From positions 361,956,001-362,020,000 of the forward strand of contig OZ024740.1 of NCBI GenBank assembly GCA_964016885.1: a stretch of DNA of 64,000 bases, read 5' to 3'. A program made the translations under genes and the position numbers. This document shows, in pieces, positions 405-55,300 of this stretch (positions are counted from its first letter, which is position 1; each line of letters opens with the position of its first letter). Below the pieces are notes generated by a model, which saw only the letters and a program-made list of their open reading frames with translations, was not told the DNA's origin and ran no database searches. The DNA is from Eledone cirrhosa. Taxonomy: Eukaryota.

Positions 405-1250
405 TTTGTGGTTAGGGTGTTTGGCTCATACTGTGTCCTTAAGCATGGCACTTTATTTTTCACTGCTCCACTCCCACTCAGCTGGAAAAAATGAATTGTA
501 CCTGTAATTCAACGAGTCAGCTTTGTAAGATATTGTGTCATGCTGCAACTCTCTGAGAACTATTTAAGGGAGCATATGTTTGTGGAATGCTTAGTCAATG
601 TGTTTTCATTGCTGTTTAGCACTAGGCCAACTTTGATTGAGCAGCCTTTTAGTCAATGTGTTTCATTGCTGTTTAGCACTAGGCCAACTTTGATTGAGCA
701 GCCTTTTAGTCAATGTGTTTCATTGCTGTTTAGCACTAGGCCAACTTTGATTGAGCAGCCTTTTAGTCAATGTGTTTTCATTGCTGTTTAGCACTAGGCC
801 AACTTTGATTGAGCAGCCTTTTAGTCAATGTGTTTTCATTGCTGTTTAGCACTAGGCCAACTTTGATTGAGCAGCCTTTTAGTCAATGTGTTTCATTGCT
901 GTTTAGCACTAGGCCAACTTTGATTGAGCAGCCTTTTAGTCAATGTGTTTCATTGCTGTTTAGCACTAGGCCAACTTTGATTGAGCAGCCTTTTAGTCAA
1001 TGTGTTTCATTGCTGTTTAGCACTAGGCCAACTTTGATTGAGCAGCCTTTTAGTCAATGTGTTTCATTGCTGTTTAGCACTAGGCCAACTTTGATTGAGC
1101 AGCCTTTTAGTCAATGTGTTTCATTGCTGTTTAGCACTAGGCCAACTTTGATTGAGCAGCCTTTTAGTCAATGTGTTTCATTGCTGTTTAGCACTAGGCC
1201 AACTTTGATTGAGCAGCCTTATGAAAGGTATTCCAGTTGAGACTATTTTG
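405..1250 (+). mobile_element. SINE-like element (family B) hosting the 57-bp array
   Basis: gtggttagggtgtttggctcata head and tgtgtccttaagcatggcactttatt..ctgctcca body, shared with copies at 3228, 18470, 26505(-), 55720(-) and 60440(-). Confidence 0.6.
591..1219. repeat. 57-58 bp tandem repeat, about 11 near-identical copies, inside a SINE-like element
   Basis: Unit ttagtcaatgtgtttcattgctgtttagcactaggccaactttgattgagcagcctt; copies differ only by an occasional extra T. Confidence 0.95.
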
Positions 1251-3056: not shown

Positions 3057-4058
3057 TATCAAATGAAATCCTGATATACCCAACTTTAGCGAATATTGTG
3101 TTTATACCAAATGAAATGCCAATATACTAAACTATAGTGTACATTGTGCATATATTTAAAAAATACCAATATACTCAATTATAGTGTACATTGCACACAT
3201 CCAACTATAATGTATGTTATGTATACATGGAGGCACATGGCTTAGTGGTTAGAGCATTGGCCTTGCAATCGAAAGGTTGTGAGTTCAATTCTCAGACCGG
3301 GTGATGTGTTGTTTCCTTGAGCAAGACACTTTATTTCTCATTGCTCCAGTTTACTCAGCTGTAGAAATGAGATGATAGGGACTGGGGTCCATATCATTCC
3401 ACTGCAAAGTGGTCGTGGAGGTGCCACGGCAAAAATAGCACCCAGCACTCACTGTAAATGAGGTTGGTGTTAGGAAGGGCATCCAGCTGTAGAAATCAAG
3501 CCAGAATCAGTTCCCGTCCCACCCTTGCAAGCAGGGAAAAGCAGACGTAAAATGGTGATGATGATGATGATGATATATATATATTGAGTACTCTTTTGAG
3601 TAATGGTCTAGCCAGTTTCAAATTGATTCCATTCTGATTTAAACGCAAATGAAATATGAATATATCCATGGAAGCATGGAAAATAGATGTAAAACAGTAA
3701 TGATAGTGTATATTGTGTATACATCAAATAAAATACCTAACTATAGTGTAATTTGTGTATATATATAAATCCGATGAAATACCAATATACCTAACTATAG
3801 TGTACATTGCGTATGTATATATCAAATGAAATACCAATATACACAACTATAGTGTACATTGTGTGTGTATATATATATCAAACGAAATACCAACATACCT
3901 AACTATTGTGTACATTGTGTATATAAATAAATAAATAAAATACTGATCTATCCAAGTATAGCGTACCTAGTTTGTATATCAAATGAAATAGCAATATGCC
4001 CAACTATAGTGTACACCATTGTTATGTATTAAATGATATACCAATATACTCAACTATA
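3057..4058. repeat. Degenerate ~55-60 bp minisatellite interrupted by a SINE
   Basis: Recurrent atcaaatgaaataccaatatacccaactatagtgtacattgtg units at about 3057-3215 and 3715-4058, with an isolated unit near 2430-2490. Confidence 0.8.
3228..3574 (+). mobile_element. SINE (family B head) with RTE-like 3' tail
   Basis: tRNA-like head gcacatggcttagtggttagagc..gagttcaattc, then ttccttgagcaagacacttt and ggttggtgttaggaagggcatccagc. The tail acccttgcaagcagggaaaagcagacgtaaaatg(gat)n matches the RTE 3' end at 21496-21550(-). Confidence 0.8.
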
Positions 4059-18700: not shown

Positions 18701-19380
18701 AACACTCATCATTGGAAATGACAGATGTCCAACAACAAAAACAAATTCCTCCTTCCTCTCTCTATAGTAAATGTTAACTTATTTTTAGATCATTATTGAT
18801 GTTAAAAACTTTTAGAGGCTTAGAAATCAGATGTGTTGTTTATAATTTTAGGACTTCTCTTCATTTTTGAAAGTAGTACCTTAATGTTACTTGGTAAATA
18901 TTTAGTTAAATGAGAAAGGTTTATAATCAGTTTATGGAAACTTTGAGGAAAAACATAATGGATTTTTTTACCAAGCATTTATTTATTTTTTTTATATCCT
19001 ACTAGCTAACCACATGGAAATTTCATGGTTTAATTATAAACAACTATCAAGTATGGTATTTTAAATATTTTATCTAGAAATTATATATATATATATATCT
19101 AGGGAGTGTAACTTGGAGTTACTGCAGGTTCACCCGGGTGAGCACTCGATGTTTAGGTTCACTTCTGTGTTGAGGTGTAGAGCTAGACAGAGTGTATTAT
19201 ATTGAAAGGATAACAAGGACGATTGGTTACTCATTCATTGCATTTATTGGTAGGTGATGTGCGTTTCGCCACTGATCAGCTCAGGGTTCGATCTGAATCA
19301 ATCTTACCCGACTCAATAATCGGTAGCTCGACGGACTCTTTAAAATGCTATAAGAAAATAACATTAATCAGTATACACTG

Positions 19381-19427
<47 letters not shown>

Positions 19428-22367
19428 AAGATTAAAATTAATAGGTGAAATATATTTCTTACTTAAAGAAATATATACAAAGGAGATTAATCACTTTAAA
19501 AGGTATCTATATTTGAAGTTCTAGTCAAACTTTAATTAGTTACCTACCTAGCTATGTGTGCTTACATTCTTTACAAATTATTCCCTGTGATTGTTTCATG
19601 TATTTATTTTATATATATGTCAATCTATTTCTAGTTGATATATATATATAAAAAAAATTTTATATTAAAGAAATTTTATATTAAAAAATAATCATTATAT
19701 AATTTAGAAAATAATTACAATTATAAATTTAAAATTAGAATGCCCTTAAGTATCCAAAGGCCATATAAGTATACTTAAAAAGGATATTATTAAACTAGAT
19801 ATATGCATTTGTCTAAATTTATACAAAGAGTACATTATTTAAGAGTACAATGTTTAAGAGTATATTTTTTTAAATATAATTTAATTTGAATTACCTTCGG
19901 GATGAAGAAAATCTTAAGTCTTTCTTTCTCATGTTTGCAAATACTTTAAATATGATATTATACTATAATATAAATCCTTATAAATTTTATAGTCAGAAAT
20001 ATTATGCCTTTAGATTAATTCACTATTTCGAACTAACATAAAGATTCAAAATTTAACGGTCATCCGGATGCGCGGGGATATATATATTTGATTAATTGAC
20101 TATTTCTAATTAACTTAAGGATTCGAAAATAAACCGTCATATAACTACACCCAGATATATATTTGATATTTTGATTGATTGATTATTTCTAGATAATTTA
20201 ACGATTCAAATTTATTCATTCACAAAGCTATGCACAAATATATATTTATATATATATTTTTGCATCATCTAATTATATGGTATTTATCCACGACAATACA
20301 AATCTCCCTCCCTATGTCTTATACTATAAAAATTATTTTCTCCTCCTCTCTCTATCCTTAATCAATTTTCTGCATAAGATAATTCTATACTTCTAGTCAC
20401 TCTCTTTTTCCTCATCTGTTTCTCTCTCTGTCTTTCACTTCTTCTTTCTTCAATAATTTAAATTATTTAAATTTCTAACAGTTATGTAGGTTTATATTAT
20501 ATTAGTAGTTGTTTATTATTATGTATCTTTATAAGCTTTCTCACACGCACCCTCAGTATTATATGTAATTTTTTCATGTCTCAATCTTAAGGTATATAAA
20601 TATTGAGTTTTGTTCTATCTTATTCACTGCCATGACTGAATTTTAACCATCTACTTAGTCAAGGTATGTCATGCATCATCTTATTTTATCTGATGAGGAC
20701 GTACTGTTGAAGATAGCTCAGTACCTCTGAAATATGTGTAATAAAATATACTTGATCACACGAATGTCTATAATTTGTTAATATTTTAAATTAATATTAA
20801 TAACTCCGGAAAACCATTTCTGTGGAGTGCTTCTAATCTATTGTAAAACTTTATTCATTGAACCTTGTTTAACCTTTAAATATATATATATATATATATA
20901 TATTTATACAGTGTATACTGATTAATGTTCAGGACATGGCAGCAATGATGAGGGACAGAGACTGGTGGAGAGAACTCGTCCTTGGATCTTGGGAATTTTA
21001 CCCGCTCTAGATAGATATTTATACAGAAAAACGATCTATTTTTAGAATAATTGAGCAATAGGAAGTTAGTAAATTTAAAAAAGCATTAACGTTTGACTAT
21101 GAAAAATGGTCTTATAAGTTGGGCATATAAACCCTGAAGATGGAAAAAAAAATTGTATAGCTCTACCTATGGGACTTGAGTCCACACCTGCAATATATCA
21201 TTAAGCTGTGCTTACCATTTACATCAAAGTGGCACCAACCCATTTTCCCATTATTAAACCTTATATTACAGGCAGTAAATGTAAACAATCTATTTTTAGA
21301 ATTGTTGAGCAATGGTATTTTAAGACTATATATATATATTTGGTTTGGAACTAGCTGTTGAAATGACAAGAGCTCGGCTGTCAAGATACTGACTCTTTAT
21401 AATATAACCATACACTACTACCCCAAGTATTAAGAACTCTTGTGAGAAATGGTCTAACCAATTTCAAACTGAATCCTTCCTGATTTATATATATATCATC
21501 ATCATCATCATCATCATTTTACGTCCGCTTTTCCCTGCTTGCAAGGGTGGGACGGGTCTTATTCAGCACAGCATCTCTCCACTCGTCACGGTCCTTCGTC
21601 ATCTCCACCGTGAGCTTCAATGATCTGAGGTCTGTTCTCACCACCTCCGCCCATGTTTTTCGTGGTCTACCTCTACCACGTCTTCCTTCAACTGGCAATT
21701 CCTGGCACTTCTTCACCCATCGGTCATCCTCCATGCGCATCACATGTCCATACCACCTTAGTCTCCTCTCCCGTACACTACATTCTATCCCTCTCAGACA
21801 CAGTTTCTCTCTCAACACATTTATGCTGGGTTGTTCACGCACATTTACACTGCACAACGGAGCATGCTTGCCTCATTTCTCTCCAGCCGTCACATATCCT
21901 CTGCAGTTGCTGCCCATGTCTCACTACCATGCAGCATCGTGCTCCTCACACAGGCATCATACAACCGGCCTTTCGTACGCATATATATATATATATTGAA
22001 ACGATAAAAAGGACGATTAGTTACTCCTTCATTACATTTATTGGTAGGTGACGTGCGTTTCGCCACTGATCAGCTCAAGGTTCGATCTGTATCGATCTTA
22101 CCCGACTCAATAATCGGCAGCTCGACGGATCCTTTAAAATGCTTATTATTTATTATTGAGTCGGGTAAGATCGATACAGATCGAACCTTGAGCGGATCAG
22201 TGGTGAAACGCATGTCACCTACCAATAAATGTAATGAAGAAGTAACCAATTGTCCTTGTTATCCTTTCAATATATTACACTCTGTATAGCTCTACACCTC
22301 AACACAGAAGTGAACTTAAACATCGAGTGCTCACCCGGGTGAACCTGCAGTAACTCCAAGTTACACT

Positions 22368-22408
<41 letters not shown>

Positions 22409-25400
22409 AACGAGTAGAACCCCGACGGCTGAGCTCAAGCCGTTTCGACGGCTAATTCTGGACTCCAGAATTAGCCATCGAATCGGCTTGAGCTCAGCCG
22501 TCTGGGTCCTACTCATTCCTATTACCCACTCTTCTACCCTACGTATTGAGTACTTTGGTGCGTTATGGTTCATCTGGTTCCTTACCACATTTCCTTCGTT
22601 ATATATATATATATATATATATAAATTCATAAATAGGAGAAGTCAGCAAGATAAATTCATAAGAATTAACTGTACCTACTTCTTATATTGTGACTGCAGT
22701 TTCATAGTGTAAGATCAATATTTGACATCCTAACAAGCCAAGACATCCAGCATCAGGAGAACATGACTCTTCAAGGGACTTTCTCACAAAGAGGAAAATC
22801 TTCAATGTTTATATATATATTTAGAAGGTAATTGAAGCCATAGGAATTACATTCATTATGGCCCCAGTTGCTCTCATTACACACTCAATGAGACAAGATT
22901 TGAACGTGGGACCATGCAAACCTGTACGTTATTCGTAATGGGGGCAGTTGCACATGGATTATGGTAAATAAATACCATATGTACTCACACATAACATAGT
23001 TGTCTGGGATTTAAAAAACATAAAATTTTGCTTTACCACTGACACACACACACTCTCTATTTCACATATACACACTCTTACCATTCCCTTTCCAGTCTGG
23101 CCAACATTTTGCAAGAAGTATACAATTATTTTAATATAACAAATAGACAGATATTTACATTCTTATACATAATTGTTTCTACTTTAGGCACAGGGCCAGC
23201 AATTATCCAGTGTATTACTGGTACTTTATTTTATTGACTCCGTAAGGATGAAACGCAAAGTCAACCTCGGCGGGATTTGAACTCAGATCGTAAAGGGACG
23301 TAACTATGCTGGAAAGCATGGCGTCCGACCCTCTACCGATACTGCCAATCCACCGCCCTTATTCTACATTCTTATACATAATGCATTGCTATCTATCTAT
23401 TATATTAAAGCTGGTGATTCTTATGTGGAGAAAATTTAACACATGGCCGGGATATTTTAATGTACATTAACTGAAAACGTTTATCCATTTAGTATCTCAA
23501 TTTTATCTGCTATCTATATATTTTTTGTATTTTCTTTAAATACAAATTTGTAAAGCTGTAAACATGTTAGCTCTTATCCTAACATTTACTCTAATATTAT
23601 AATTTATTTTTTGTGATACCCTTGGCATTCATGTGAAGTGTAACATTTGCATTTTTCTCTTTACTATCATTATCCCTTGTGCAAATTGTCTAGAGGGTCG
23701 GACGCCATGCTTTGCAGCAAAAGGTTATGGCCCTTTATGGTCTGAGTTCAAATCCCGCCGAGGTTAACTTTGCCTTTCATCCTTACGGAGTCGATAAAAT
23801 AAAGTACCAGTCGATAAAATAAAGTACCAGTCGATAAAATAAAGTACCACTGGGATAATTGCTGGCCTTGTGCCAATAGTGGCAACAATTATAATCATGA
23901 CAAATATAAATCTTGATATTTATTCAGTTGCAGTTTATTATATTATATACAGAGTTCAGTCTTAACTGCTGTTGACAAGGTTCTCTTTTATTCTCTTACT
24001 AGATTCAGTCATAAGATTTTTACCATGTTGGGGCACTGTTTTGATTTAGTCAATCATATTAACCTCAATACTTATTTTTTTCAAGTCTAGTACTTATTTT
24101 ATTGATCAGCTTTTTGTGAAACTGCCACACACCCAAAAATCCACATACAAAAACACATGTTCAGATACATTAGCAAACATATATACTACTTATTAGCAGT
24201 AACGCTAGCACAGTGTATTTCAAGCTTCCACTGTATGCAAATAAGTATTTGCACAAGCTATTAACTTACCCTTTATCACTGTCAAGTGAAAACATACTTG
24301 TATTTAGCATTTTCACACATTGTTGAGATACCTTTAACATGATTCCATCATAAAATGTCCACAGCAAGACTTATGTATATTTATTATACATATCCAAAAG
24401 TTTAATATGTTAAATTGCTTTTCTGAGATTGATAATTATGAGTTGTCTAAGTATTAGACACAAATAACTTTTTAATTGATAGATAGATAGATCAGATTGG
24501 AGGTGATAAAAACCAGTTAGACCGTTACTCACCAGAGTACTCGATACTTGGAGTAGTAGAGTAGGTAATATAAAAAAAATTCAGGACATCAATGGCTGAG
24601 CTCCGGCCGTTTCAACAGCTAGATCTGAACTCAGTTTGGATCTAGCTGTTGAAACGGCCGGAGCTCAGCTTTGGGTGTCCTGAATATTTTCACACACGCA
24701 CGTGTGTGTGTGTGCGTGTGTGTGTTCTTTATTATGGCTAGGTTGCGAGTTTTGTTACTCTGGGGTTTCACTTGATGATCCTATGTGTACACATGTGAAA
24801 CTCTAGAATAACAAGACTCACCATTTAGCTATAAAATATTTAAACTCTACTTCAGCATTGAATACTCATTCTCACATTCGTCAATAACATAGTGATATAT
24901 ATATATATATCAATAATTTACATTGGTTATGATACTGACATGTTGCCTACTGTACTACCGATATATATCCATGCAATGCATAGACACATACTTGAATGAG
25001 GAGACATATATGTATGAATGTATGTATATATATATATATACACATGAAGTAAAAGTCAACAGGTTATAAGATAAGTCACTTCGTTTATTCATAATCATTA
25101 TGCAACAGTTAAAACGTCATAAGACAGCTAGAAGTTGAACAGAAAAAAAACAGGAAAACATAAAGATGAAGCTTATTTCTGTTGTTTTGATTCATTGATA
25201 AGCTCCAGGCTGGTATTTAGTGTTGGCCTCTTAAAATCACCAGTAGCATATCAACTATATATATATATGTGTGTGTGTGTTTTTGGTATGATAAAATGCA
25301 GTGGATGGGTATAGGAAGGGCATCCTGGCATAGACAACTTACCAGGCAAAGGGTAGAAAGGACTCTTTAACTGTATCAAGGACATGATGACTATGCTAGT

Positions 25401-26109
25401 GCTGGTGCTATGATAAAATGAATGGTACACCCTGTAGAATATGGGAATATAAGTACAAGATGAGGTCCCAGTCCATACTGTATAAAAGGGAACAATAAAA
25501 ACTACCCACATACATAAAAACCACACCCAAATATATTTGCATGTAAAACAATAATATAATCCACCATAATTACAGGTATACAGGCAAGGAACATCAGGCT
25601 ACAGTCATGCTATTACATGGTTTCTGTTCATATATATCCATAGGTTAAAACCAGCACTCACTAGCTAATTCAATGTCAGTGCTAAAACAAAATAGAGGTA
25701 ATGAATACCTCCGCAATAATCTGTGCTGACATACAGTTTCAGGAAGACAAACAAGGAAATGTTTTTCACTGTAGAGGTGGGGACCTGTGATATATATATA
25801 TATAAAGAATATCAGGTTTAACAAAAGAATAGCTAATTATAAAACTCATCTGCATTGCTTTTCTGTGATGGATGTGTAGCTAAAAATAAAGAGAAATATC
25901 TTTAAATAATGTTAGTAGGTACACAAACATACACATATATAGATTATGTTCCAATATAAATAGGTTGCAATAATCAGAAATGAGCTAAAACAAGTGCTAA
26001 ATACTGAAACACTTCAGGTAATGGATAGAGAAAAATAAGAACAAATGCCAAAACTGACATTCATACATACAATACTATATGTGTGTGCATGTAAATACAC
26101 GCACAAATA

Positions 26110-26177
<68 letters not shown>

Positions 26178-26868
26178 CATATCCATGTGATGTTGATGGA
26201 TTTGAAAATGAGTACTCAATCCTGAAATAGTGTTTAAATATTCTGGCTAAGTGATGAATCTTGCTACTCTGGAGTTTCACCTGTGTACTCACAGATCTTG
26301 TGAGTAACAAGGTTCATCACTAAGCCATAATAAAGAATATATATATATATATATGAACCTTGAGACTATTTTCTTGTTATTTCAAGCGTTAAACATATAT
26401 TTCGTCAATGTACTGTGTCGTTTGCTTTGTTAATTCTGTTTACTTTTTACCCCCCACCCATATATAGTAGTAGTAGTAGAAGTAGTAGTAGTGACACTAT
26501 ATCAGTTTTGTTGATAAGTGTTCCAGTTGATACGATCAACAGAACAGCCTGCTCATGAAATTAATGTGCAAGTGGCTGTGCATTCATCAGACATGCATAC
26601 TTTTAACATAGTTTTAATGGAGATTCAGCGTGACACAGAATGTGACAAGGGTGGCCCTTCGAATTATAGGTACAACTCATTTTTGTCAACTGATCTTGAC
26701 TGGAGTAATCTGAAATAAAGTGTCTTGCTCAAGGACACAACACACCACATAGAATCAAACTCATGATTGCGAGCCAAATACTCAAACTACAAAGTCACAC
26801 ACTTTCACAGTGTGTATATATATATATCAACACCGTTTTACATCCATTTTCCACACTAGCATGGGTAT

Positions 26869-50461: not shown

Positions 50462-52267
50462 TAAAAATATCCATTGTGCAGTAGTATGAATGTAATTATA
50501 TATATATTTGAATGAGTATATATATGTATATATTCATTTATGTTCAAATATCTGCATACTTGTCCATCTATATATTATTCTCCTCGTGATGGTTCAATAT
50601 CAGTATAGAAATAATACATGCTGAAACTTAACTATTATTAGGAATTATTTGAATAAAAGTGTGACAGAAAGGGTGATATTTTATATAATTCCAGAGTGAT
50701 GGATTAACTTTAGTATGCATGCTATATACCAACTAAATTTTGGGGAATATATCATATACATGGAATCATATAATTTGTCATTATATTTCATTTCATTCTG
50801 CAACATTAAAAGTGTGCAGTGTTATGACTATAACTTGATATGGTGGATTTAATGAAGGGATTTCTAGAATCAGTTAAAAATGTACTATATATGAATGAAA
50901 TATATTTTTTATTGATTCTTTTCACCACATTCTTTATCTATAAAATATTCCTCTGATGTTCATATTTTAAATAAATGAATTAAATTAATAAAATTGATTA
51001 TGGAGACTACTTCAAAATGAATTTAATTTAAATTTGCTTTTAATAAATGCTTTTCATAAATGTTTGATGTGACTTTAAAAGTTGAAAACCAAGGATATAT
51101 GCATATATCAGGATTTTACCAGTTTTAAACTAGTATGACCATTATTTAACAGGGTACTCATTACTTGGGATAATAGAGTGTGAATATATTAGAGAGGTGG
51201 GGTTTGGTGGCTGAGCTCATGCCATTTCGACAGCAAGCTGTCAAAACGACAAGAGCTCCAACTCTCTAATATATATACATATTTATATATATTATTTACA
51301 TCTTTGACAATATTTTGGAGAAGCAGAAAATGTAACTAGTTTTGTAAGAATCATGTCTTTTTGAAAAAGAATAGTCACTCAGTATTACTGCATTAATGCA
51401 TTGAGCATCTTCTGTTAAATTGTAGTTCACCTCATTAACAGATTAGAAAGGATTATAATGCATTGTGTGAATGTGAATATAGTGGAATATCATTTTCTTT
51501 AGCACTTTAGCATCTACATTACTCTATATTTACTATTATATTTTTATAGTAAAAGGCTTTACCTCACATAATCTCACATAATATTGAATCTATGTGATTT
51601 TGATGTTATTTATTTTGAAAAAAATGCCTTAATATCAGTATGAGCAGCCAGTTATGACCAGTTTGAACAGAAAGAATTAGAGAATTCTGGTCGGATATGG
51701 CCAGTTTAAATGCTAAAGAGTTAAAAAACTTTTAGAAGTAACACAAACATTGCAAATAAAGCTATTCATTTATGAAGTCTCAATGATCAATTTAATTTTG
51801 TTTTATGTAGTTATGTTTTCAATTGGTCATGTAACTATTGATTAATTGATTATTTATTAAAATGGCACATTTCCTTTTTGGCACATTAGTTTCATTTATG
51901 CCAAATCTAAAAATCAAAACCTTCTAAGGTGAGACAAATAATTCAATAACATGGCCAATTGATTTTTATATATTTTTATTAATTTTATTTCATATTTTAG
52001 TATTATGTTGTATATTTTTATATTCTATTTTTATTTATTATTTAATTTCTCATTCCTTAAGTTCAATGCATTTTTAAAGTTTAATTTCAAGTTGATTGCA
52101 TTTTTTTTAGAATGAATTATAAAGTTCTATTAACAATTTTAACATTAGAAAAATTTTGAAAGATTTTTCTTATGTGAATTGTGTTTGTCTAGTCTTTATT
52201 GTTGTCTGTATTGCTGCTTTGATAATGAAGCTGCAACACCTTTAGTATTGCTGAAATAGAGATTTAT

Positions 52268-52346
<79 letters not shown>

Positions 52347-55300
52347 GGTGTTGGATGCTTAGAATATCCGTCGTATGTGGTAGGCTGTTTGAGCACTCGA
52401 TGCTCTCATAGAGCAGAGTATGATATCACTGAAAAAAAGAGAATCAGTGTTGCGACGAATGGACAATCGTTTCTCTGACGACCAGCTCGAAGCACGATCG
52501 ATGTGATGATCGAACGATTGTAATATGTCCAATAAATTCCATTCGTCGCAACACTGATTCTTTTTTTTTTGTGATATATATTCTTCCTTACATAACCCTA
52601 CTTAACAAAATAAATTACACTCCACCATATACAATTACTCAATAACTACAACCAAAATCATCCAGCAATTATATAATACCTTGCCAACAAAAATCTAAAA
52701 CTTATAACCAAGTAAAATACCTACAAAAAATCATAAATGTAACACCTAAAAAAGGCATTAACATAATAAAATGAAAATGAAAACCAATCCACTCTACTAG
52801 TTCTAAAAGGATGAACTTCATCAGGCTGCAAGTACCGTAACATCTCTGGTTTCTGTCGAATTGGGCTACCAGAAAATTAAGAATTATGTATTCTGTAGTG
52901 CACTAAGTACTTAATTATACTAACTACCAGACCAATATATATAAGAGCAGCACTGGCTGTTCTTATGAATTTCTTAAGCCAGAGGTTGGGAACCCTAGAA
53001 ATTAACTGACATTCAATGAGGCTACATTTTAAAAGTAATATTGCCTCACAAAGCCTCAAAGTCTAATTAGAAATGTAAAGAAAGAAATATAGGTAGGGTT
53101 TTCTAGGAGTCATAATTACTTGAAAACTTAGATGTTAAATAAAATGAAATCAACAAAATATACTCCAATGTAAAGATTTGCCTTCAAATGTTGTACTTTT
53201 TTCAGAAGGCCATAAGTTCTCTACCCATCTGTGCTATCAAACAATGGATTTATTGAAACTCACTCATCTGATTATATGTAGTTCCTTAAATATTATATAA
53301 AACTATCACTTAGAAGGTAAGATATGAGTAATCAGTGTCCTGATTCTTGTGTAGAAAAAGGATGGGATTTCTATGTATATTCTGTAAAATGGTTGCTGTT
53401 AGGAAGGGCATCTCAATAGAGAGTTAAGAGAACTTATATATCTTTAAAAATGTGGGAATACATATATACATATCTTCTTTAAATACATCTAAATAAATTT
53501 TTGAAAATTGCAATTCACAAACTGCAATTCCTTAAGACATTGTATCTCAGATTTGTGGAGCACAGTGAATAGGAGTGATCCTGTTGCTCTCTTAGGGGCA
53601 TAAATGAAATGATTTTAAAGAGAAAACTAAGACTAGATAAAATAAAATTTATAAAGAACATAGGCCCGTACCACAGCAACTCTCAAATTTCAAGACAATT
53701 TTGTAATTTCGGTATTTTTCTTTGGACATGGTCAGAATTCAAATAATTAAAAAAATACATAAAGGGAAAAATGACGACTTAAACTAATATAAAAATGCCC
53801 AGCGACTATTATTGTTATTATCAACCCTTCAATATTTCGCAATCTAAAGGTTTTGCAGCTTCCTGGATAGTTTCTTGACATCTACACAAGCAGTCCTTAC
53901 TGCAGATGTTCAATTGAAAAGTATCCTGCTTGATGTATCAGTCTATGTTTGTAATTTGTGTTTTAGGTTTGGGCGCAGAAGCGAAAGGCAAACCTATGTT
54001 CACCAGTAAACCTGCTATCCGACAACTCGGAGAAAAACTAATCATAGAGTGTAAACTAACAGCTGATCCTAAGCCAGATATAACTTGGCAACTCAACGAC
54101 AAAACTTTATCTCAAAATCAGCGGATTAAAATGTTAATCAGATCTCTTGGTAAAAACCATACTATCTCTTTAGAAATCAATAAGGTAGGCAGTGCTGATG
54201 GTGGTGAATATAAGGCTATTGCTAAAAACACTGCTGGTGAATCTACAGCCACCATCAATTTAAACTTTGAAGGTAAGTTTTATTCAGATCAAACAAAAAA
54301 ATCAATCCTATTTTTCTGATCACCACTTTTTATCCTTCTCTCACTAAAGTGCACTTTCTGGCCAGATAAAGCTTTCCTATGGCACAACACTTCACTTTCA
54401 CCTTGATTGATACATTTCTGTGGCACCTCTTTTCTTTATTTCTTTTTTTTTCTAAATAGATATTAAGGCAACAGAAAACAAGTATATTCTTCAACTCTAA
54501 CTCTAAACTTATTTAACTCTCAATCTCTCTATCCCTGTCAATTTTTCAATAAAACTATTAACCTATTTAAATTATTTAAACATCTCTCTTACTTAAATAT
54601 CTTTCAATTTAATGATCTATATATTTATAGATCTGCTTTTATCTCACTGCTTATCTAAATATCTTTATCTATCTACTTAAATATCTATCTATCTATCTAC
54701 CTACCTACCTATCTATTTATCTATCTATCTGACTCTATTTAAATATCTATTTATTTATCTATCTCTATCTATCCATCTTACTATCTATCTACCTACACAC
54801 TTGTACATATGTACACAGACACATACAAATAGTTTTAGGGCTTCATTTTATTACTGGAAAGAGATCAAGGTAATCAGAATTTGAATTTTATTAGTATTTG
54901 GAACCAACACTAAAACATTTTATTGATTTGCTGCTGAAATTTTGAGAATTGGAAAAAGCAATTGAGGTCTGAAAAAACATAGTTGAGATCTCTGAAAAGC
55001 AAATTCTATTGCACTCCATGATTGAGGTCTAAAGAGAGGATCCTATTACACACCAAAATCTGAGTCTGGAAACTTCCAAAGACAATTTAAAGAAATTGTT
55101 CTGTTCATTAAAACAATGATAAATAAAATAAAAATGAAATGTACAGCTTGCACAAATGCAAGTTTAACTGACCTACTAGAAGGTTTTTCAAGTGAAAAGC
55201 AACATGAAATGAAGCTTCTTGCTCAAGAACACCATGTACCACCTGATCCAAGAATCAAATTTACGGTCTAACACTCTAACCACTGCGCCAATCATGTAGT

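What the first reader, a model, noticed from the sequence alone, without database searches (positions are those of the whole stretch)
21335..26340. Several unrelated microsatellite-embedded fold-back mini-elements share a half-hammerhead plus ATYGAGTRCTY layout
Seen: at least four sequence families of 150-380 bp elements sit in microsatellites, mostly (TA)n: 19101/21991; 21335/22405/24491/51105/3583; 24728/26185; 52343. Their sequences differ, but most are long hairpins. On one strand the arm reads GAAAC-short self-complementary stem-GUH. Examples are GAAACGGCUUGAGCUCAGCCGUC (about 22424-22446 minus, palindromic loop), GAAACUCCAGAGUA (about 26265-26278 minus), GAAACGCAUGUC (22205-22216) and GAAACGAUUGUC (52462-52473 minus). 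An ATYGAGTRCTY-like motif follows (19140, 22321, 22545, 24535, 24857, 26210, 52391), and the microsatellite lies a few tens of bases further. In most copies the CUGANGA half of the core is absent and the fold-back point lies upstream of GAAAC. The complete hammerhead at 20684 has a similar downstream gtggagtgctt. Established: Penelope-like elements carry minimal hammerheads with palindromic stem III in their terminal repeats and often show inverted partial repeats. Inference: these are a recurrent class of tiny PLE-derived insertion products, or non-autonomous elements, whose inversion point is set by the ribozyme structure, with a cis motif conserved across families.
Basis: partly seen in the sequence, partly recalled or inferred. 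Interest (0 to 1): 0.75.

Follow-up and report, generated by a model that had tools for sequence, protein, structure and literature searches.

The report
Twin-primed stubs of Penelope retrotransposons
These short mirror-image inserts in TA repeats are cut-down ends of Penelope-like jumping genes, shown to run into coding elements for three families and likely so for two more; they end just before small folded signals that likely tell the element's enzyme where to start copying on each DNA strand.

Summary
The repeats are real and abundant: family B alone has roughly 55,000 copies. They are not a new class. B is the terminal repeat plus 80-nt 'tail' of a young 3.55-kb Penelope-like element with Hydra-clade motifs and intact ~790-codon frames. 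A and the 20684 element also run into Hydra-type ORFs; C and D were not linked to an ORF. The 'half hammerheads' are truncated (B), decayed (A) or whole in sister copies (C, D). Fold points differ per family (about -18, -83, -103 from GAAAC) and are not the cleavage site, so the ribozyme does not set them. The shared motif is the 3' side of a covarying bulged hairpin. Full-length B carries two, 78 nt apart, each 4-6 nt past one of the two insertion ends. In 18 of 18 ORF-bearing insertions with both ends classifiable, exactly one end has the tail. This fits priming from both target strands on one RNA. The scan already noted these stubs, the tail asymmetry and the twin hairpins elsewhere in this genome; I re-tested them here.

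The parts
21991..22372 (+). Family A fold-back stub: inverted arm 21991-22143, direct arm 22152-22275, tail 22276-22372; GAAAC at 22205
22280..22331 (+). Bulged tail hairpin of family A (outer helix ACTC/GAGT, 2-nt bulge, trailing RCT)
22405..22601 (+). Family B fold-back stub: inverted arm 22405-22463, apex about 22463, direct arm to end site 1 (about 22521), tail to end site 2 (22601); terminal part of the 3.55-kb Hydra-type element
22528..22554 (+). First tail hairpin of family B (inner stem mutated in this copy)
19099..19359 (-). Family A stub, direct only, tailed; 5' end at -92 from GAAAC; hairpin 19141-19192
19360..19386 (.). 27-bp inverted duplicate of flanking DNA at 20903-20929, joined to the 5' end of the 19099 stub
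19645..20880 (+). Family H: 3' part of another Hydra-type PLE, with a complete type I hammerhead (20684-20746) and a tail hairpin (20803-20831)
21340..21487 (+). Older B-related stub, direct only (no fold-back)
24495..24690 (-). B-related fold-back stub (arms 24574-24690), tail hairpin 24536-24562
24726..24897 (+). Family C stub with partial fold-back (24732-24834) and a near-complete core (UUGAUGA at 24772, GAAAC at 24797)
26184..26340 (-). Family C fold-back stub (arms 26239-26332), folded inside stem II; many sister copies carry the whole hammerhead
51108..51272 (-). Decayed B-related fold-back stub
   Evidence: weak hit; by eye
52344..52584 (-). Family D fold-back stub with an internal deletion; sister copies hold a complete hammerhead (CUGAGGA core); homologous to family A
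3582..3641 (+). Tail-only stub of the older B-related subfamily

Best explanation
The elements are the terminal repeats and tails of several Penelope-like retrotransposon families, likely all of the Hydra clade, left as head-to-head pairs of very short cDNAs that were likely primed from both cut strands of a (TA)n target on one RNA. Shown: identity with the ends of ORF-bearing elements (B, A, H); two fixed outer ends, each followed by TA; the tail on exactly one end; arms of the same subfamily; a covarying bulged hairpin 4-6 nt past each end. Inferred: a dimeric RT-endonuclease binds the two hairpins, starts one cDNA at site 1 and one at site 2, and displaces the first cDNA where they overlap. 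Both cDNAs stop at a family-specific 5' limit, most likely the RNA's 5' end, and are joined head to head. The hammerhead half is a passenger cut by that limit. The stubs lack hairpin 2 and are likely dead ends.
For: Full-length B copies (frames of 720-819 codons) are bounded by the B sequence as direct repeats, plus an inverted copy; 88,536 first-look candidates. Hydra-type ORF remnants lie in sense upstream of A in 4 of 6 extended A loci (L282-L285 yes; L288, L289 no) and of H in 4 of 5. ORF-selected B insertions: 12 have an untailed inverted end and a tailed direct end, 6 the reverse, none has the same on both; of 30 rows, 11 had no inverted end in view and 1 was truncated. Pairs not picked by a whole-element or tail query: 40 of 43 classifiable are mixed, and 9 more were unclassifiable. 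In 6 of the 18 the long ORF arm is the untailed one, so neither arm is simply a copy of the other. Subfamily sites agree between arms: A 39 of 39; B 57 of 57, 56 of 57, 54 of 54 and 53 of 55. Public contigs run into TA at both sites, and summed contig depth steps about 15-fold at the B hot spot. Hairpin: 16 of 31 structure-blind clusters pass against 1.3% of control positions. The outer pair is ACTC/GAGT in 207, GCTC/GAGC in 24, GCTC/GAGT in 9 and ACTC/GAGC in 2 copies. Two hairpins precede the ORF in 14 of 20 long B copies and both form in the MFE fold. Precedent: two internal RT start sites, extension of both strands and a predicted dimer in Anolis PAc (PMC11167929).
Against: No biochemistry and no raw RNA reads: the RNA 5' end, hairpin binding and cleavage are untested. 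C and D were not joined to an ORF. Pfam and PDB searches found nothing for the B protein; its assignment rests on motifs, a weak tblastn hit to a Neptune-type RT-GIY-YIG protein (E 4e-4) and by-eye likeness to Hydra-1_Obim. Two two-tailed pairs and one pair with two untailed ends exist. Concordant arms would also arise from two RNAs of one active subfamily. Later deletions in palindromes can mimic non-overlapping inversions. Hairpin counts are copies, not independent events.
Confidence: 0.8

Rival explanations
1. Self-priming (snap-back): one cDNA or an antisense template folds on itself and the second arm is copied from the first, as proposed for head-to-head Penelope palindromes.
For: Arms are concordant and closer within a copy than between copies (0.034 vs 0.066 in B, 0.050 vs 0.065 in A). 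Several apexes are perfect palindromes. Proposed in PMC3846280 (passages).
Against: In 6 of 18 ORF-bearing insertions the short arm has the tail and the long arm does not, and in 12 it is the reverse, so each arm holds sequence the other lacks. A copied arm would not stop at one fixed site beside a hairpin among many TA dinucleotides.
Confidence: 0.1
2. The stubs are self-propagating non-autonomous elements (SINE- or retrozyme-like), transcribed from their own promoter and moved in trans.
For: Huge excess of stubs over long copies. 18 of 35 seed B copies share one apex junction. Non-autonomous PLE derivatives are described (PMC8557442 passages; bioRxiv 10.64898/2026.07.22.740005).
Against: The shared apex is the query's own (ascertainment). 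Unselected apexes are private: 13 of 13 in A, 14 classes in 15 B rows with the repeat being one insertion. Stubs occur in several subfamily types that also have long copies. Stubs lack hairpin 2 and are not tandem arrays.
Confidence: 0.12
3. The ribozyme fold or its cleavage sets the fold-back point.
For: One B copy folds exactly at the cleavage site (L205, +23), two A copies stop 4-5 nt past it, and several C copies fold inside stem II.
Against: The main hot spots lie in different places relative to the fold in A, B and D, all upstream of the cleavage site, which the stubs retain.
Confidence: 0.08
4. They are MITEs or other TIR DNA-transposon derivatives.
For: Short, high-copy inverted repeats in TA.
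Against: The inverted repeat is one-sided, with a unique tail and a variable centre; the sequence continues into RT-type ORFs.
Confidence: 0.02

Closest known systems
Hydra clade of C-terminal EN+ Penelope-like elements, including Hydra-1_Obim (Craig et al. 2021, PMC8557442)
   Same: Single ORF with C-terminal GIY-YIG-type domain, DKT, CxCx5C, CxxC and CxH motifs, no CCHH; (TA)n target; type I hammerhead near the 3' end; inverted 5'-truncated copy; one-sided tail.
   Different: Unit 3.55 kb with a 3' UTR of about 1.1 kb (described: generally under 3 kb). RWR instead of RWK. Tails of 80-100 nt rather than 30-40. U3-A8 or C3-A8 core in B. The bulged hairpin and the extreme stub excess are not mentioned in the passages read.
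PAc (Poseidon, Anolis carolinensis) in vitro system (Frangieh et al. 2024, PMC11167929)
   Same: Two internal RT start sites that bound the tail, near the pLTR-ORF junction; both target strands extended; predicted dimer; ribozyme dispensable for insertion.
   Different: Other clade; AC-rich stem-loop instead of two bulged hairpins; that paper does not explain the inverted copies.
Minimal PLE hammerheads, U3-A8 variant (Cervera and de la Pena 2014, PMC4209133)
   Same: Short helix I, long helix II, unpaired base at the start of stem II, U3-A8 core, single motifs from truncated PLEs, pairs on opposite strands.
   Different: B has a 6-bp stem III and a stem II loop of about 30 nt; A has a decayed core.
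Non-LTR retrozymes (bioRxiv 10.64898/2026.07.22.740005)
   Same: Small, PLE-derived, type I hammerhead sequences.
   Different: Retrozymes are tandem units with complete ribozymes; these are solitary head-to-head stubs, often with half a ribozyme.
L1 twin priming (recalled, no call)
   Same: Two target ends prime on one RNA and give a 5' inversion.
   Different: Here both sites are fixed by the element, and the arms usually overlap as a duplication.

Membership tests
EN+ Penelope-like elements | Single ORF with RT and GIY-YIG endonuclease | tested here: inconclusive
   B parent has frames of about 790 codons with RT-like DIES and YRDD and a VIY..YIG motif, but no Pfam or PDB hit; weak tblastn hit to a Pfam-positive Neptune-type protein.
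EN+ Penelope-like elements | Pseudo-LTRs from partial tandems plus an inverted 5'-truncated copy | tested here: met
   (family B); L089 and L297 for H.
EN+ Penelope-like elements | Optional tail on one end | tested here: met
   18 of 18 classifiable ORF-bearing B insertions; 17 of 17 tail-selected A pairs; longer than the described 30-40 bp.
Hydra clade | DKT, CxCx5C linker, CxxC and CxH around E and N, no CCHH | tested here: met
   Regex over 30 frames: DKT in 20 of the 21 frames reaching it (one DKA), CxCx5C in 21 of 30, CxxC and CxH in 28 of 30; criteria.
Hydra clade | N-terminal RWK motif | tested here: not met
   The position reads RWR in the four printed full frames; RWK in 0 of 30. Conservative change.
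Hydra clade | Insertion into (TA)n | tested here: met
Hydra clade | Canonical hammerhead near the 3' end | tested here: inconclusive
   Complete in C, D and H; U3-A8 in young B with the expected MFE fold; C3-A8 in older B; decayed in A.
Hydra clade | Placement inside the clade in an RT phylogeny | not testable with these tools
   Reference proteins were readable only as paper text; compared by eye.
Hydra clade (families C and D) | Physical link to a Hydra ORF | tested here: inconclusive
   No ORF found within reach; D is homologous to A; both carry the hairpin.
Type I hammerhead ribozyme | Self-cleavage | not testable with these tools
   Rfam gave no hit at gathering score; no raw reads.
Non-LTR retrozymes | Tandem units, each with a complete hammerhead | tested here: not met
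   Solitary head-to-head stubs; no such arrays in the window.
MITE / TIR elements | Inverted repeats at both termini, fixed interior | tested here: not met
   One-sided tail and private apexes.

The most novel reading that the evidence does not exclude
The stubs are the Penelope equivalent of retroviral strong-stop DNA. Both hairpins exist together only at the pLTR-to-ORF junction, so the enzyme would normally prime near the 5' end of its own mRNA and run 60-140 nt to the transcription start (the B and A limits fall on the A of a TCATTT, at -22 and -92). Long insertions would then need a continuous template upstream: a tandem read-through RNA, a jump to the 3' repeat, or a circle made when the 3' repeat's core half completes the 5' half-hammerhead. 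This would explain pseudo-LTRs, inverted copies, the tail and the stub excess in one scheme.
Probability: 0.3. Interest if true: 0.75.

Novelty: new member of a known kind. Interest (0 to 1): 0.48.

Why it matters
How Penelope-like elements make pseudo-LTRs, inverted copies and a one-sided tail is an open question (PMC8557442 calls an in vitro system the next task). A young, intact, very abundant family with two mapped insertion ends, a covarying hairpin beside each and a sharp 5' limit gives concrete mutants to test. It also shows that on the order of 100,000 short 'MITE- or SINE-like' repeats in this genome (61,000-154,000 hairpin-bearing ends by extrapolation) are retroelement stubs, which matters for annotation.

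Tried and rejected
Rfam found nothing in the window. The first 40 GIY-YIG loci were mostly Neptune-type and were not the parents, because Pfam misses the Hydra-type domain. They served as a control: none of 13 Neptune-type 3' ends printed shows the hairpin motif. A tail-only genome search for B returned nothing, most likely because its words are too common, so unselected B copies were taken from flanks and evenly spaced stretches. The parents of C and D were not found; a GIY-YIG-like look of D's upstream DNA got no support from tblastn. No raw RNA reads exist for the element; the one RNA run had a single contig piece, so expression, start site and editing are open. The protein atlas gave no answer. 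The cluster of B 5' ends at +36 is an alignment artefact of a variable segment and was not counted as a hot spot. Non-overlapping inversions were not used as proof, since later deletion gives the same picture. A 3' splice-site reading of the hot spots (YAG at all three) was considered; ends include intron-side bases and no common leader is seen at apexes, so it is not favoured but not excluded. An excess of one CpG mismatch between B arms (8 vs 1) is likely due to the query. No complex or structure prediction was run.
Full report
Setting. The window lies in a 3.0-Gb animal genome, likely an octopod cephalopod; this is an inference from genome size and by-eye likeness of the element to Hydra-1_Obim. 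I use the names A (19101, 21991), B (22405 and relatives 21335, 24491, 51105, 3583), C (24728, 26185), D (52343) and H (hammerhead at 20684). Positions are given from the G of GAAAC.

Observation. Six of ten listed copies have significant self-inversions, one is a decayed fold-back and three are not hairpins. The motif is enriched: 8 in the window against 0.17 expected, and 13 in 600 kb of evenly spaced stretches against 0-4; 7 of those 13 are family B. The GAAAC-stem-GUH string alone is common. Each family is a dispersed repeat: 30 A and 30 B top hits all show (TA)n, inverted arm, direct arm, unique tail, (TA)n. B occurs 11 times in 600 kb, about 55,000 copies (27,000-98,000).

Parents. Walking upstream from long B copies led to an ORF. 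A protein search gave 88,536 first-look candidates and many frames near 800 codons. Twenty long loci show a 3.55-kb unit bounded by the B sequence as direct repeats, usually with an inverted copy upstream. The protein has DKT, CxCx5C, CxxC and CxH and lacks CCHH, which are the Hydra-clade criteria in Craig et al. 2021 (PMC8557442, passage); it has RWR instead of RWK. Pfam and PDB gave no hit. Remnants of the same protein type lie in sense upstream of A in 4 of 6 and of H in 4 of 5 extended loci. C and D could not be joined to an ORF, but D aligns with A across the ribozyme region (z 4.5).

Hammerheads. C, D and H sister copies hold complete type I motifs. In B the 5' half lies about 65 nt upstream of GAAAC, beyond the usual apex. 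It reads UUGAGAA in 48 and CUGAGAA in 60 of 111 matches (selected copies). The first is the U3-A8 variant of Cervera and de la Pena 2014 (PMC4209133, part 1 read), and the young copy folds into the expected three stems at minimum energy; older B, A and D do not give the full fold. In A the aligned core is CCGUCGA, likely dead. No cleavage was tested.

Two fixed outer ends. Inverted arms end at +70 in 16 of 20 A inversions and at +42/+44 in 17 of 27 B inversions; most other B cases break in a variable segment, and 2 rows are one two-tailed insertion. Tailed ends lie at about +170 (A) and +122 (B). Among 30 ORF-selected B rows, 18 had both ends classifiable: 12 inverted-untailed/direct-tailed, 6 the reverse, none alike. 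Over all sets not chosen with a whole-element or tail query, 40 of 43 classifiable pairs are mixed. Public contigs of the coded runs run into TA at both sites. Subfamily-diagnostic sites agree between arms almost without exception. Each arm can hold sequence that the other lacks, which argues against the self-priming idea of Arkhipova et al. 2013 (PMC3846280, passages). It fits the PAc results of Frangieh et al. 2024 (PMC11167929, main text read): two internal start sites bounding the tail, both strands extended, predicted dimer, ribozyme dispensable.

The shared motif. It is the 3' side of a hairpin: RCTC, inner stem, loop, inner stem, 2-nt bulge TN, GAGY, then RCT. The descriptor finds 20 sites in 600 kb against 0-4 in controls, in 20 sequence clusters with unrelated inner stems. 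Chosen blind to structure, 16 of 31 clusters pair as predicted against 1.3% of control positions, including 10 of the 11 clusters with five or more members; C fails only the loop-length rule. The outer pair covaries. None of 13 Neptune-type 3' ends shows it. By eye the same layout, with GCTC/GAGC, is present in the published Hydra-2_Amil, Hydra-1_Ajap (twice, at its 5' end) and Hydra-2_Ajap consensi; it is weak or unclear in Hydra-1_Amil, Hydra-1_Crog and Hydra-1_Obim (supplement parts 52-53). Earlier notes of this scan pointed to a second hairpin, which I tested: 14 of 20 long B copies have two, 78 nt apart, in front of the ORF, starting 6 nt after site 1 and 4 nt after site 2, and both form in the MFE fold. 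The second is absent after solitary 3' ends, so the stubs lack it.

The fold point. In unselected B copies, 26 of 47 direct arms start between -27 and -10, and 23 of 27 inverted arms stop between -23 and -12. In A, 11 of 33 start between -92 and -74, and 10 of 20 inverted arms stop between -99 and -82. In D about 9 of 21 copies start near -103 (by eye). Summed contig depth rises about 15-fold in the matching bin (not a copy number). These places lie in the stem II loop (B) or upstream of stem I (A, D), and only 1 of 47 B copies ends at the cleavage site, so the ribozyme does not set them. The far edge coincides with the A of TCATTT in both A (-92) and B (-22), which resembles the insect initiator consensus (recalled, noted after the fact). 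Penelope has an internal TATA-less promoter (PMC2377424, abstract and one section). I put the RNA 5' end at about even odds. Apex junctions are nearly all private, so stubs arise one by one. None of the 18 ORF-bearing insertions has an inverted arm stopping at the hot spot, so the two arms stop or continue together, which points to two kinds of template.

Mechanism (0.8 for the outline). Shown: parentage of A, B and H, two ends, tail asymmetry, arm concordance, hairpins. Inferred: dimer binding, twin priming, strand displacement, stop at the RNA end, end joining.

Literature. Searches listed no paper that describes the bulged hairpin or twin priming for these elements; the library lacks most subscription papers. 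The retrozyme preprint (parts 1-2 of 5; supplements closed) concerns tandem units. The Octopus vulgaris repeat paper (PMC13282606, passages) has no mention of hairpins, hammerheads or Hydra. The scan itself has noted these stubs many times, including tail asymmetry and twin hairpins; those are unchecked notes, not support.

Verdict. New families of a known kind with a known insertion layout, plus an undescribed, testable cis signal. Interest 0.48.

Noticed in passing
window 19360-19386 and 20903-20929: The 5' end of the A stub is joined to an inverted 27-bp copy of the flanking DNA that lies beyond the TA tract, as if the target end had folded back on its own TA repeat; later insertions separate the two.
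   Followed up: partly
G000; L121-L140: At least four Neptune-type PLE families with long open frames (RT plus C-terminal GIY-YIG) also end in (TA)n, some as head-to-head pairs (L126, L137); 10,596 first-look candidates.
   Followed up: partly
L126:1685, L129:8645, L132:6266, L133:4777: Another abundant short family with a complete type I hammerhead (CUGAUGA core, long stem III), also seen as a fold-back in the flank of L030.
   Followed up: no
L252-L279, upstream of family A: The 3' UTR of the A parent carries a C/A-rich tandem repeat of roughly 90-nt units.
   Followed up: no
L321 and L325 (G000:C1, about 91.47-91.49 Mb): Head-to-tail tandem of at least three near-identical full-length B units with open frames; a candidate source locus.
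   Followed up: partly
L268, L266: Rare insertions with the tail on both arms (one B, one A).
   Followed up: no
window 16389 and 44723, minus strand: Two further motif-bearing sites, likely ends of other families; not traced.
   Followed up: no
window 591-1220: Near-perfect tandem array of 11 copies of a 57-bp unit.
   Followed up: no
window 23180-23360 and 23690-23880: Two copies, in opposite orientation, of a common short interspersed repeat with a tRNA-like look; one has a triple 20-bp duplication.
   Followed up: no
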